A stretch of DNA of 64,000 nucleotides from Octopus vulgaris (Eukaryota): contig OX597815.1 in assembly GCA_951406725.2 (NCBI GenBank), positions 62,930,001 through 62,994,000 of the forward strand, given 5' to 3'. The translations under genes were made by a program, and so were the position numbers. Under the pieces are notes generated by a model that saw nothing but the letters and a program-made list of their open reading frames with translations, did no database searches and had not been told where the DNA came from. Positions 5,706 to 62,562 of the stretch are shown in pieces (position 1 is the first letter of the stretch; each line of letters starts with the position of its first letter).

Positions 5706-5837
5706 TTTTCTTGGTGATGGTTATAAGGGCACTAGGGTGTGCTAAGATATGTAGGTCCCGGGTTGATTCGGGGTTAACCACAGTAAGTAAGGTACTCAAT
5801 ACATAGCAGAGTAAAATTAATTTATTATATAGAAGGA

Positions 5838-5885
5838 GCTTCTACAGGACTAGTACTGTTTCATTCAAGAGAAATCTTCAGGAAG
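5838..5885 (-). ncRNA. Hammerhead ribozyme, second pLTR copy
   Basis: Same sequence as 4913-4961 except the outer helix I base. Confidence 0.75.
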
Positions 5886-5893
5886 ACCTTCAG

Positions 5894-5942
5894 GCTTCCT
5901 GAAGATTTCTCTTGAATGAAACAGTACTAGTCCTGTAGAAGC
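5894..5942 (+). ncRNA. Hammerhead ribozyme, inverted pLTR copy
   Basis: GCTTC CTGAAGA TTTCTCTTGAAT GAAACAG TACTAGTC CTGTA GAAGC on the + strand. Confidence 0.8.
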
Positions 5943-7692
5943 TCCTTCTATATAATAAATATATATATATATATATATACTGCTTTTTAAAGACCTGTGC
6001 AAATCGCAAAGCACACCGATACACGCCTACAAGAAATATAAGTACAGAAAACAAGCCCTAGATTGGAATAAGTTACTGGACTTACTACTACTACTACTAC
6101 TACTAGCAGCAGCAGCAGCAGCAGCAGAATCGATACTAAAGCATACCATCTCACAGACAGCAACACTAAACACGACGGCGACTGTTAACTATAGCAACAA
6201 CGACGACGACGACGATGACAATAACAACGACAACAACAACGATGGCAAATTCAAGGCAGGATGGCGGTCTCTACTGATCTATAAATCAGTCTCTAATCCT
6301 ATTAGCACCGTCACTAGCTGTCTTATGCATTACACATGACGTCTAAAAGTTGTCTCAAGCCAAAGTTTCCACCTCTCGGCTTGAACGCACCCGGAAGACC
6401 ATCTGATGCGTTCAGCTACCAATATTAACTTCTTTCCCCATTCCCTCCCTTTCTCTTTCTTCCTTTCTTTCTCTCTCTCTCTCTCTCGCTTAACACGAGA
6501 ATATGTGTATGTGTGTATTGTTGTTGTGTATGTGTGTGTAGTTATAAATTTGGTGTCATTCATTGATTTTTGTCTTTTAGGTGTGCTTTCGTTTGGTGGT
6601 GATTACAGTGCGTGTGTGGCTGTGTGTGCGTGTCTATGTGTCTGCCTCACTATGTACGTGTATGTCTCTGTTTGTGTGACTGTGTGCGTCTGTGTGTATG
6701 TCTGACTGTGTCTGTATGCATACGTGTGTGCGCGAGCGTGTATGTGTGTGTGTGATGGAAACTTGCATTTGATCAAAGAGTTTGTATGCGTTAATATGTG
6801 CTTGCACGTGAATGTGTGTGTATGTGTGTGTGTGCGGGGGGGGGGGGGGGCTGGTGTGTGTATGATTGTGTCTTTATAATATGTAGTTGTGCGTCTATTC
6901 TAACGGGATGCGATGATGATGACGATTAATCATTATCGACAAACTTGATGACCCTGTTGATGATGATAATGATGATGATGATGATGATGACGACGACGAC
7001 GGCAATGATGATGGTGGTGATAATGATGATGATGATGATGATGATGATGATGATCACCATTTTATTAGGATTGACAGTTTGCTGTCCGAATCCTAGACAA
7101 TTTTTGACCAACGATCAGAGGAAGCAGAAGGACAGATTATATATCAAATAATCTTGTAGAATTTGAACAGGTCTGTCCTCCACACACTTCAGGCTTCACT
7201 TCTCTCCACACCCACATTTGAACCAAGAAGAAGCGGGGGTTGCTCAACGTTGATTTTTAGCGTTGGTGTATAGTCACATATCTTTAAGTAGAGACAGGAG
7301 GTGTTGTAATCGATTCAATCAACTCTCTTACGTGATTGATATATTCTTCTATCGACTCCACAAAGGCAACCCTAGCCGGATTTGGACTAAGAGGGTAAAG
7401 AATCGTAATTAAATACCACAAGGGATTCTGTCCAACGCTCTAAACTGCTGCAAGTTGACTGCCTTTGGAATATGTCTAAAATCTTGTTCACTTTGTTAGT
7501 CAGCAATCTTTTATTTCTTTTGATTTTAATCATTAGTCTCAGGCCATACTGTGGCACCGTCTTTAAGACAGTAATTGATTATATTGGCCCTACTAAGTAA
7601 ATGGTATGGATTTTATTGATCTTGGGAAGATGAAAATCAACGATGCTTCAGCGGGAATTTCAAATCTGAACATTCAATTGCGGGACTAAATA

Positions 7693-7924
7693 CCTATTTC
7701 TTTAATACCCACAAGGGGCTAAACACAGAAGGGACAAACAAGGACAGACAAACGGATTAAGTCGATTATATCGATCCCAGTGCCTAACTGGTACTTTATT
7801 TATCGACCCCGAAAGGATGAAAGGCAAAGTCGACCTCGGCGGAATTTGAACTCAGAACGTAACGGCAGACGAAATACCGCTAAGCATTTCGCCCGGCGTG
7901 CTAACGGTTCTGCCAGCTCGCCGC
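7693..7924 (-). mobile_element. SINE family 1, young copy with ~15-bp target-site duplication, nested in an older copy
   Basis: Reverse complement of the 4573 family; flanked by GCGGGACTAAATACC (7680-7694) and GCGGGAGTAAATACC (7923-7937). Confidence 0.85.
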
Positions 7925-59306: not shown

Positions 59307-60079
59307 GGTGTTATGTCGTTTCTTCATGTTATGTCCGCCACTTTTAAGAGGAGAGGAAGTATAACTGGGATCACTACAGTCATTGAAGATATTTGGGTAA
59401 CATGGGGCAGATGAGGTTTTTATGCGTGTAGGGCTTGAAGAAATGCGTCTGGCGGCTCTTTTGTGTCTTCTACTAATGTAGGGATATATATATATATATA
59501 TATATATATATATATATATATATATAAATATATATACATCTGTGTTAATGTGTGTGTTTGCGTGCTTGTGTATGTGTGCGTGTGTATATGTTTGTGTCTG
59601 CATGTGCATTTGGGTGTATGTGCAAAAAGAAAGGCAGAGCCTCATCAATAGATACTTACAAACATGAGGAAGACTGGGATCAAAAGTTTTTACTAAGCCA
59701 TAAGTTGATAAGGCTGATTCCTCAAGTTCTATAGCTCATAAATGTTCTCACCCGAACAGGACGCCGGTCTCTCGCAGGATTACTAATCTTTGTCACTCAG
59801 GTGAACCGGAGCAACGTGAAATGAGGTCTTTTCTTCAAAAACAACGCATCTCCTCGTCCAGAAATCGAAACCCAAATCCTATGATTATGACTGCAGCATT
59901 CTAACCAGTAAGCCACGCTCCTCAGCACACCGGTATGCCTCAAACTCACAACCCCCGTATATACATACATACATACATACATACATACATACATACATAC
60001 ATGCATGCATGCATGCATACATACATACATGCATACATACATACATACATACATACCCACACACACACACATACATACA

Positions 60080-61050
60080 TACATGCCGAACTATTGAGGA
60101 ATCTACAGCTATTCTATCTAGATTACAAGTTCAGGTTTGTACCTGTAATTATTGGGACGCTGGGATATGTAACACACTGCTTAAATACCAATCTTGAGAA
60201 ATTAGGCTTCTCAAAACCAGAAAAGAGGAAGCTGATTCGAAGCCTACAGATCCAAGCCATCACTGGAACTGTAAAAATCTGTAAAACTTTCCAGAAGTTT
60301 ATCATTTAAGTATAGATAATCATGTCTAGATATGCAGGTATATGCATGAGAAAACATACATAAAACAAAACATAGAAATCTGCACGTATACATACATACA
60401 TACAAACCCTGTTGATGTTGAAATTCCAACGAAGAGCCCTTGGGTCTAGGCTAGAGACCGACTCTTTCTCTATTGACAGGAAATTTTGAAATAAAACTGA
60501 ATAATGACAAACATACATAGATACTATGAGATAATACCTGCTCCTGAGGTATTATATACTTACAAAGACTATTTACAAAGCTCTCTGCAGGAAGAACTAC
60601 CCAGACATATACATCAAAGACATGTTAGAACGTGCAGGTAATCACACCTTTAAAAACAAGGAATACTGGTAGAACACTCTAATAAAAATATTTCGTTGAA
60701 ATCATAATAGACCTGATATTGTTCTGCGGGACAGAGAACAAAAGTCATGCACAGTTGTAGAGATTAGCTGCTAAGTGGATGAGATTGTACAATCAAAAGT
60801 CCATAAATAAGGGAATATTTATGGCGAATTAATGCGGAATTTATAGCCATTCTATCCTGATTATGAATTCTCAATTGTACCTATTATCATAGGTACATTA
60901 TGTTATGAATCAACAAATTTGCACGAAAACCTAGAAATACTCTGTTTCACGGAAAAAGAGCAAAAGAAACAGTTGCACTTTCTCCAAATTCAGTCTATTA
61001 CTGGCACAGTGAAGATTTGTAAAACGCTCCAAAAATTCTCCACCTGAGAT
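60080..61050 (+). mobile_element. Two tandem R4/Dong-like RLE 3' fragments, (TACA)n family
   Basis: AELLRNLQLFYLDYKFRFVPVIIGTLG...GTVKICKTF (59935-60309) and a diverged second copy with NRPDIVLRD...VVEISC (60700-61030). Confidence 0.75.
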
Positions 61051-61246
61051 TCTTATGTGAACAGATGCATGTACTTGGCTGTACGCATCGACAACACACC
61101 AACTCAACCGCATATTTACAAACACGGGAAACTTTCTTAACTGAAAATATCTTGCCGCGTTGTTAGCGACCGGCTTGAATCTTCGAGAACTTAAAGTCAA
61201 AGAAAAATCATACATACATACATACATACATACATACACATATACG

Positions 61247-62010
61247 TACGAAGTAATATCAAAAAGTTCTAGAACTAGTTCTGTAGTACGCTTACAGCTT
61301 GCAGCACGCGGTTGCCTGCGTCATGAGAGCTAGCAGTGACCTTCATGAGGCAGTGTGCCGAGTGATGTCGTTGTGTTTACTTCGTAAATTGTGAAATTTC
61401 ATTTTTTGTGATAACGTGTATGTTGTAGTCAGGAACAAAGAGCCAACGTGAAATTTTGCGCTAAACTTGGGAAGTCTGCTACAGAGATAAGGATCATGCT
61501 TCGGCAAGATTACAGCGACGGGACAATGAGTCGTACGCAATGTTTCGAGTGGCACGGGTGCTTCAAAGGCCGCAGCTCAATAAAGAAGATGCTCGTTGTT
61601 TTTTCGGCACCCGCGGTATTGTGCATCGAAAATTCGTCTTCTAGGGCCGGACAGTCAATCAAGAGTTCTACTGCGACGTTTTGAAGCGTTTGAGGGAGGA
61701 GATTTGGTGAAAGTGACCGGATCTGTGATGCGCGAGGAATTGGATTCTTCACGGCGATAATGCCCCCTGTTGCTGAGCTCTTCTCACTCGTGAGTTTCTC
61801 ACCCAAAAAAAAACAAAAAAGAAACATGGTAACGCTTCAGCACCTGGCCTATTCTCCAGATTCAGCGTCTGCGGACTTCCGTCTCTTCTCCAAGAGAAAA
61901 ATGCAGCTCAAAGGTCACCATTTTAACACCGTTGCCGAGATCTAGAGCGAATCGCGGAATCGCTTAGAGATTCCAAAACGGTAAGAATGTCATGAACATT
62001 TCTACAGTAT
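61247..62010 (+). mobile_element. Internally deleted mariner transposon
   Basis: EQRANVKFCAKLGKSATE...MSRTQCFEWH HTH, LHGDNAP, HLAYSPDSASADFRLF; 5' end TACGAAG..ATCAAAAAGTT. Confidence 0.8.
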
Positions 62011-62198
62011 ATGAATGCAGATGTATATATATATATATATATATATATATATATACATACACAAACACAAACACACACACAAGCACGCACATACACACAC
62101 ACACACATACATATACATATACATATATTGATAAAAATGGTAAGACAACAAAATAATGAAAGAGACCTCGATATTATGTAAGTGGAGAAATTTATCTA

Positions 62199-62562
62199 TA
62201 AATGTAATATGTGACAATTATTCGGTAGCCATGATAAAACTCCGAGTTTTGGACACCGAGGTGGAATACCACACTGCCATCTCTCCAGTTATCTGGTCAT
62301 CGGAAAAAATCCTTTTGAAACTGACAACCGTCAGGTGGTATCTGTAGTTATACTAAGTTTTCATCAAATGGATAATGTCCTTTATAAACCGATCCTGTGC
62401 TGGTCCATTGGTATTTGCGATTAAGACGAAAGCATCATCTTTTTCTTTTTTCTTTTTCCGATGGCCAGATGACTGAAGAGATGGCGGCGTGGTTTTCCAC
62501 CTCGGCATCCGAAACTCGGAGTTTTATCATGGCTACCGAATAAATGTCACATATTACATTTA
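62199..62562. repeat. Fold-back unit of two inverted HHR-bearing ends (HHR on + at 62468-62528)
   Basis: 62199-62308 is the approximate reverse complement of 62453-62562; GATGA-CTGAAGA-GATGGCGGCGTGG-TTTT-CCACCTCGGCATCC-GAAAC-TCGGA-GTT-TTATC. Confidence 0.8.

What the first reader, a model, noticed from the sequence alone, without database searches (positions are those of the whole stretch)
5819..62562. Recurrent ribozyme fold-back micro-elements sitting between microsatellites
Seen: at least six short units of unrelated sequence share one architecture, in which the region around or 3' of an HHR is present twice in inverted orientation and is usually bounded by TA/CA tracts. They are 5819-5960, 17088-17247, 25807-26023, 33134-33320, 44100-44774 and 62199-62562, plus a split one (20077-20104 vs 25069-25097). 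Roughly 20 HHR-like motifs occur in 64 kb. Established: PLE insertions often include an inverted pLTR segment. Inference: here the dominant product is a coding-free, MITE-like palindrome carrying a ribozyme. This could be an uncatalogued class of non-autonomous PLE derivative that, inside introns, would supply self-cleavage sites and long dsRNA (ADAR or small-RNA substrates in a lineage known for heavy A-to-I editing).
Basis: partly seen in the sequence, partly recalled or inferred. Interest (0 to 1): 0.72.

Follow-up and report, generated by a model that had tools for sequence, protein, structure and literature searches.

The report
Head-to-head stumps of Penelope retrotransposons
The hairpins are real and carry hammerhead-like motifs, but their joints differ from copy to copy and most trace to protein-coding Penelope-type jumping genes, so they are likely one-off insertion stumps, not a self-spreading element; in the youngest family the arms stop at one spot that likely marks the capped start of the RNA.

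Summary
All six fold-backs and the split unit are real (arms 87-100% identical), each carries a hammerhead-like motif, and such motifs exceed chance (20 vs 5 shuffled). They are not a new MITE-like class. Each belongs to a different high-copy family; four families (U1, U2, U3, U6) link to Penelope-like RT/endonuclease coding sequence, U1 itself holds an ORF piece, and U5 is a 471-nt tandem retrozyme-type repeat. The layout (inverted truncated copy, one-sided tail, TA targets) is the published Penelope insertion pattern. Junctions are made at insertion: 40 distinct among 49 in a junction-blind sample, and repeated ones sit on different haplotypes. The hairpin is predicted to bury the ribozyme in U1, U2 and U6. 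One detail is worth keeping: in the young U1 family 67 of 101 arm ends fall in 11 nt at the ribozyme's 5' edge, 29 nt below a TATA box, often with an extra G, as expected for run-off from a capped sense transcript. This is absent in the U6 family. The scan's earlier notes reached the same reading on other DNA of this genome.

The parts
4826..5960 (-). U1 whole insert: inverted pLTR piece + pLTR + 5' part of a PLE ORF + jump + second pLTR, in TA tracts
5892..5960 (+). U1 inverted arm (short end), with hammerhead-like motif 5899-5937
5751..5889 (-). U1 upstream pLTR with hammerhead-like motif 5843-5881 and tail; 99% identical to 4826-4964
4965..5720 (-). First 253 codons of the family's RT + GIY-YIG frame (99% identical to the 718-aa frame in L253)
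4826..4964 (-). U1 downstream pLTR, hammerhead-like motif 4918-4956, joined to the ORF piece at the ribozyme's 5' edge
17010..17247 (-). U2: arms 17089-17164/17186-17246, motif 17139-17168 (core variant with C at position 4), tail 17010-17088
20072..20220 (-). Split unit, 3' half: hammerhead-like motif 20115-20155 and end
25008..25101 (-). Split unit, 5' half: tRNA-like head (25008-25068, resemblance recalled, ARAGORN negative) and inverted end (25069-25101); about 4.6 kb incl. a LINE lies between the halves
   Evidence: (L367 holds the family unsplit)
25788..26180 (+). U3: arms 25788-25863/25967-26042, motif 25903-25976, tail to about 26180
33002..33320 (+). U4: arms 33134-33209/33233-33320, worn motif about 33211-33250, tail 33002-33133 on the inverted side
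44100..44780 (+). U5: one 471-nt monomer (44310-44780, intact motif 44583-44631) preceded by an inverted 215-nt piece that crosses the head-to-tail join
62125..62562 (+). U6: arms 62199-62308/62453-62562, motif 62473-62523, tail 62125-62198
62309..62452 (-). U6 inner piece, not from the family's own upstream; likely a scrap of PLE RT coding sequence
   Evidence: 44-nt match at 82% (E 6e-5) inside a PLE RT remnant in L130; not significant against the U1-family protein

Best explanation
Each unit is the hammerhead-bearing 3' end of a different high-copy repeat family, present as a direct and an inverted truncated copy in TA-rich DNA, and is likely the one-off product of a Penelope-like insertion, not a unit that copies itself. 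Likely steps (inferred): the GIY-YIG endonuclease nicks both strands of a TA tract; each strand primes reverse transcription at one of two fixed start points in the pLTR (giving the long end with tail and the short end); both cDNAs stop early and are joined head to head by microhomology with small templated inserts. The ribozyme is included because it lies 60-150 nt from those start points. In the U1 family the stop is likely the capped 5' end of a sense transcript that starts at the first base of stem I, 29 nt below a TATA box; stumps begin at that base, lack the TATA box and would be dead ends. U5 and the split unit are likely non-coding passengers moved by the same enzyme.
For: Shown: U1 family is the pLTR of a ~5-kb element with a 718-aa frame whose nearest clusters carry GIY-YIG/RVT. 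PLE coding sequence is collinear with the arm in 3 of 23 U3-family loci, 2 of 59 U6-family loci and 1 of 88 U2-family loci. Junction-blind sample (first 90 of 1170 exact hits): fixed long end with TA in 88 of 90; short end at +54..+62 in all 49 fold-backs; 40 distinct junctions in 49. In the palindrome-selected set one junction occurs 7 times on three haplotypes and another 4 times on two. U3-U6 family junctions vary. Wall: 31 of 139 arm ends at exactly -6, 67 of 101 ends between -144 and +82 within -7..+3; TATA starts 29 nt above -6; arms reaching -6 that are not template have G at -7 in 20 of 33 (one counted twice), where the template has T; all ORF-bearing copies examined except the window's keep the upstream with TATA. 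Literature: inverted 5'-truncated copy, tail, microsatellite bias (PMC8557442, passages); both strands cut and extended, internal RT start (PMC11167929, section 3 part 1); promoter inside the pLTR (PMC2377424, passages).
Against: The wall is not general: the U6 family shows broad ends from +104 to -330 in 30 junction-blind copies; the U2 family clusters loosely (22 of 48 arm ends in -22..-5) with no TATA at matching distance. The extra G can also come from the partner arm by microhomology or from a 1-3 nt snap-back on the mirror of stem I; 11 of 33 arms have A there (palindromic joins). -6/-5 is also an AG after a branch-point-like motif, and in D. virilis an intron ends at helix I (PMC4209133). 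The two arms share the subfamily variant in nearly all loci (2 discordant), which fits one cDNA folding back as well as two cDNAs. No coding partner was found within 1.5 kb for the U4 family (0 of 23) or collinear for U5. Pfam and PDB did not recognise the 718-aa protein. All 90 sampled copies are from one chromosome.
Confidence: 0.85

Rival explanations
1. The palindromes are replicating non-autonomous units (MITE-like, copied whole from fold-back masters).
For: Some junctions recur: 5, 3, 2, 2 and 2 copies among 49; 7 and 4 copies among 29 in the palindrome-selected set. Short fold-backs are the commonest product in three families.
Against: 40 distinct junctions in 49; the recurrent ones are the simplest microhomology joins and occur on different haplotypes. 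The window's own U1, U3, U4, U5 and U6 junctions were not seen in the other loci fetched. Short copies lack the TATA box.
Confidence: 0.04
2. Same PLE origin, but the inverted arm arises by self-priming: one nascent strand folds back (on an antisense template as proposed for rotifer PLEs, or by cDNA snap-back on the mirror of stem I), and the pile-up at -6 reflects that hairpin, not a transcript start.
For: Proposed in PMC3846280 (passages) from palindromes at inverted junctions. The wall equals the end of stem I (6 bp) and the U2-family cluster matches its longer stem I. Arms are concordant for subfamily variants. A few junctions extend the mirror by 2-3 nt.
Against: No junction extends the mirror beyond 3 nt among 53 G-bearing arms listed. 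A TATA box at canonical spacing above the wall is not predicted by this model. Copies without any inverted arm also stop near the wall. Both target strands are extended in vitro (PMC11167929).
Confidence: 0.3
3. Same PLE origin, but the 5' end at the ribozyme edge is made by RNA processing (5'-to-3' trimming that stalls at stem I, or events at the AG acceptor-like site), with a non-templated base added by the RT.
For: The boundary coincides with stem I and with an AG acceptor-like site; an intron ends at helix I in D. virilis Penelope (PMC4209133).
Against: No shared upstream exon or leader in front of -4 in any copy; no spliced joint in four contig sets (weak); does not explain the TATA spacing.
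Confidence: 0.12

Closest known systems
Insertion units of endonuclease-positive Penelope-like elements (pLTR, adjacent inverted 5'-truncated copy, one-sided tail); PMC8557442 Fig. 2, PMC3846280 Pen2a_Av
   Same: Head-to-head inverted pLTR, tail on one side, hammerhead in the pLTR, microsatellite targets, microhomology joins, RT followed by C-terminal GIY-YIG.
   Different: Tails here are about 70-140 nt against 30-40 nt in those papers; stumps of 150-350 nt outnumber long copies; the U1 family has a ~2.5-kb microsatellite-rich 3' UTR and a sharp breakpoint wall. Clade not determined.
Opposite-strand minimal hammerhead pairs 100-700 bp apart in Schistosoma mansoni, attributed to truncated PLEs (PMC4209133)
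   Same: Dispersed PLE-type hammerheads, mostly without ORF, some as close inverted pairs; palindromic stem III.
   Different: That paper does not map breakpoints; core variants here (C at position 4; U-U closing stem II in the U1 family) were not seen in the parts read.
Non-LTR retrozymes (PMC7229834; bioRxiv 10.64898/2026.07.22.740005)
   Same: U5 family: non-coding head-to-tail repeat with one type I hammerhead per monomer, proposed PLE passengers.
   Different: Monomer 471 nt (above the 170-400 nt of the first paper, within the 51-972 nt of the second); mostly 1-2.5 monomers with inverted ends; circular RNA and cleavage not tested. U1-U4 and U6 are not tandem repeats.
Palindromic DNA-transposon MITEs such as the hyper-edited Xenopus Harbinger repeat (PMC5625713)
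   Same: Short self-complementary repeats that would form tight double-stranded RNA.
   Different: A MITE has a fixed palindromic consensus and symmetric ends; these have variable centres and asymmetric ends.

Membership tests
EN+ Penelope-like element (U1 family) | Single ORF with RT and GIY-YIG endonuclease | tested here: met
   718- and 722-aa frames; nearest Atlas clusters carry GIY-YIG in 26-50% of members and RVT_1 in some; RT and GIY-YIG motifs read by eye (recalled). Pfam and PDB gave no direct hit.
EN+ Penelope-like element (U1 family) | pLTR flanking the ORF in partial tandem, with adjacent inverted copy and one-sided tail | tested here: met
   8 of 8 long loci have a pLTR 30 nt before the ORF piece, 7 a downstream pLTR within the stretch; long and short ends.
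EN+ Penelope-like element (U1 family) | Type I hammerhead motif in the pLTR | tested here: met
   Descriptor score 11-12; stem II is only 3 bp and closed by U-U; cleavage not tested; Rfam negative.
EN+ Penelope-like element (U1 family) | RT phylogeny placing it in a named PLE clade | not tested
   No tree built; no reference PLE set at hand.
EN+ Penelope-like element (U2, U3, U6 families) | Collinear PLE coding sequence beside the arm | tested here: met
   L368 (U2); L310, L312, L313 (U3); L117, L286 (U6). Fragments only.
EN+ Penelope-like element (U4 family) | Collinear PLE coding sequence beside the arm | tested here: inconclusive
   0 of 23 loci within 1.5 kb with six query peptides; hammerhead, tail and TA targets are present.
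Non-LTR retrozyme (U5 family) | Non-coding head-to-tail repeat with one type I hammerhead per monomer | tested here: met
   471-nt monomer; head-to-tail joins in 26 of 30 loci; intact motif. Sample is biased to long copies.
Non-LTR retrozyme (U5 family) | Self-cleavage and circular RNA | not testable with these tools
   No raw RNA reads available.
MITE-like replicating palindrome | Fixed internal junction shared by copies | tested here: not met
   40 distinct junctions in 49; variable in the other families.
MITE-like replicating palindrome | Symmetric terminal inverted repeats | tested here: not met
   One end carries a tail that the other lacks in the U1-U4 and U6 families.
tRNA-derived SINE (split unit) | tRNA-derived head with internal Pol III boxes | tested here: inconclusive
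   Head resembles a tRNA by eye (recalled) in the window and L367; ARAGORN found none; family not searched genome-wide.

The most novel reading that the evidence does not exclude
In the young U1 family the stumps are paired run-off cDNAs from capped, uncut sense transcripts whose TATA-driven start is the first base of the hammerhead: a strong-stop-like intermediate trapped in hundreds of copies. Head-to-head pLTRs would then come from priming on both target strands with sense RNA, not from self-priming on antisense RNA, and breakpoint pile-ups would map PLE promoters from DNA alone.
Probability: 0.5. Interest if true: 0.5.

Novelty: new member of a known kind. Interest (0 to 1): 0.3.

Why it matters
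As elements these are ordinary and should be annotated as PLE ends. Two things keep some value. First, how PLEs form head-to-head repeats is stated as open in PMC8557442 and PMC3846280; a young family with intact ORFs, over a thousand near-identical ends and a one-base breakpoint wall gives a direct test. Second, hundreds of perfect 65-70 bp hairpins per family would be strong ADAR substrates wherever transcribed (palindromic repeats and lizard Penelope are heavily edited, PMC5625713), but that was not shown here.

Tried and rejected
Rfam: no hammerhead at gathering score; E-value list filled by microsatellite matches to miRNA models. First descriptors missed motifs with a bulge before stem II; one search replaced them. 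Searches with the whole palindrome select similar junctions and were not used for breakpoint statistics, only for junction-by-haplotype comparison. A tail-only DNA search for U1 returned nothing because common words are skipped; an exact pattern was used. Small deletions near the predicted cut site (16 of 123 arms) were rejected as signs of cleavage: they are mostly dropped G's, also occur 10 nt away, and lie almost all in hairpin loci, so likely read errors. Splicing or a spliced leader at the wall: no shared upstream sequence. RNA: no RNA holder listed on record; only contigs, which cannot show starts; no joints on the promoter region; the unique flank of U1 had almost no cover in three guessed-RNA sets, which is not evidence either way; A>G differences cannot be told from copy variation. 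Host gene context: none found among 15 frames tested, so 'intronic' is untested. U6 inner piece against the U1-family protein: not significant. Paper searches for a published breakpoint wall or cap G in PLEs found none in this library; Repbase and Dfam could not be checked, so the families may already be catalogued. Supplements were not read.
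Full report
Setting. The window is G000:C2:62930001-62994000 in a 2.8-Gb genome, 36% GC, with 16% in short tandem tracts. That it is an octopus is my inference from the repeat landscape and the scan's earlier notes. No host exon was identified.

Observation. 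All six inverted pairs and the split pair exist, with arm identity of 87-100%. A type I hammerhead descriptor of my own (core recalled; bulge before stem II allowed) gives 20 motifs at score 6 or more against 5.05 in 20 local shuffles, and 14 against 2.75 at score 7. U1, U2, U3, U5, U6 and the split unit are among them; U4's core is worn but clear in its family. Rfam reports nothing at gathering score. The named coordinates are only the palindromic parts: each unit but U5 has a one-sided extension. A local inverted repeat was found at 5 of 17 motif sites against 4 of 60 random sites.

What the units belong to. Each is a member of a separate abundant family: first-look candidates 445, 1419, 416, 1208, 4034 and 2295 for U1-U6 (lower bounds); exact short patterns hit 1170, 569 and 1656 times for the U1, U2 and U6 families. 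U1 is the outer end of a 1.14-kb insert: inverted piece, pLTR, 253 codons of an ORF, then a jump to a second pLTR. The family has full-length members of about 5 kb with 718- and 722-aa frames followed by a long microsatellite-rich UTR and the pLTR; the nearest Atlas clusters carry GIY-YIG and RT families in part of their members, while Pfam and PDB gave no direct hit. Related coding sequence is collinear with the arm in 1 of 88 U2-family, 3 of 23 U3-family and 2 of 59 U6-family loci; other hits were in the wrong place or orientation and were not counted; none was found for U4 (0 of 23) or collinear for U5. U6 has a foreign 144-nt centre with a weak match to a PLE RT remnant. U5 is a 471-nt non-coding monomer with head-to-tail joins in 26 of 30 loci. 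The split unit is one element, tRNA-like head plus AAT tract plus hammerhead, seen unsplit in L367, here interrupted by about 4.6 kb including a LINE.

Do junctions replicate? For U1 I took the first 90 of 1170 exact hits to a tail pattern that is blind to the junction. 49 have an inverted arm, including 47 of the 55 short copies. Outer ends are fixed and abut TA (88 of 90 long ends; 46 of 49 short ends). The inner junctions are 40 distinct in 49, with 0-4 nt microhomology or small locally templated inserts. Five junctions recur (5, 3, 2, 2, 2 copies). In the palindrome-selected set the two commonest junctions occur on three and on two haplotypes, so recurrence reflects easy joins, not descent. 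The U2 family has 20 fold-backs in 28 tail-selected loci (one duplicate dropped), the U6 family 19 in 30, with varied junctions; U3, U4 and U5 junctions vary too.

The wall. Counting from the first base of the ribozyme core, 15 of 90 direct arms and 16 of 49 inverted arms end at exactly -6, the first paired base of stem I; 67 of 101 ends between -144 and +82 lie in -7..+3, and only 5 lie in -8..-30. The template has a TATA box starting 29 nt above -6. Where an arm reaches -6 and is not template, the next base is G in 20 of 33 (one arm counted twice), A in 11, T in 2; the template has T. All ORF-bearing copies examined other than the window's keep the upstream region. I read this as reverse transcription running off a capped start. 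It is an inference: the G may come from the partner arm or a short snap-back, the site is also an acceptor-like AG, and no raw RNA reads were available. The U2 family clusters loosely at -22..-5 (22 of 48 ends) without a matching TATA; the U6 family has no wall.

Mechanism. Shown: two fixed outer ends, TA targets, variable head-to-head joins, link to coding PLEs. From papers: inverted 5'-truncated copies, tails and microsatellite bias are standard (PMC8557442, passages and section 10; PMC3846280, passages); a purified PLE protein cuts and extends both strands and starts inside the RNA (PMC11167929, passages and first part of section 3); the promoter lies in the pLTR (PMC2377424, passages); hammerheads sit in pLTRs and close opposite-strand pairs were ascribed to truncated PLEs (PMC4209133, parts 1-2 of 4); tandem hammerhead repeats are PLE passengers (bioRxiv 2026.07.22.740005, parts 1-2 of 5; PMC7229834, passages and section 14). 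Inferred: both strands prime, both cDNAs stop early, and repair joins them. Self-priming, as proposed in PMC3846280, remains the main rival for the inverted arm.

Consequences for RNA. Folding predicts that the hairpin buries the core in U1, U2 and U6 (22-30 kcal/mol to open; core unpaired 0-11%) but not in U3 or U5 (1-2 kcal/mol); the U4 value is unreliable because my core coordinates were off. Long helices (66 bp in U1, 56 in U5) would suit ADAR; palindromic repeats and lizard Penelope are heavily edited (PMC5625713, passages). Editing of these loci was not measured.

Verdict. Real features, known architecture, new families at most. Eight earlier scan notes on other DNA of this genome reach the same reading, three of them including the capped-start idea; I had reached it before looking and they are not independent support. 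Interest 0.3.

Noticed in passing
U2 family (17139-17168; L339-L368) and U4 family (L316-L338): The common core in these families has C in place of U at position 4 (569 exact hits for the U2-family pattern; most U4-family loci). Activity unknown.
   Followed up: partly
L253-L260: The U1-family 3' UTR is about 2.5 kb and largely TA/TG microsatellite-like sequence shared between copies, so the element carries microsatellites with it.
   Followed up: partly
L182-L190: Eight of the twelve best ORF loci share a frame that ends at 506 aa with the rest in another frame: a frameshifted master amplified in trans, or a systematic read error.
   Followed up: no
window 20072-20220 and 25008-25101; L367: A hammerhead family with a tRNA-like head and AAT tract, possibly a Pol III-driven PLE passenger.
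   Followed up: partly
   Followed up: no
window 43668-43746 (-), 52819-52888 (+), 14404-14449 (+), 2102, 51655, 53592: Hammerhead-like motifs with no local inverted copy; 43668-43746 is well formed.
   Followed up: partly
window 9261-12576: LINE with endonuclease and RT domains and internal inversions of 235 and 160 nt at 99% identity.
   Followed up: no
window 26261-27840: Tc1/mariner remnant with 233-nt inverted ends at 77%.
   Followed up: no
window 16446-16630, 18400-19704, 52334-52603: Further PLE coding remnants related to the U1-family protein.
   Followed up: no
window 47827-48325: Tandem array of a 188-nt unit, 2.6 copies, 97% matches.
   Followed up: no
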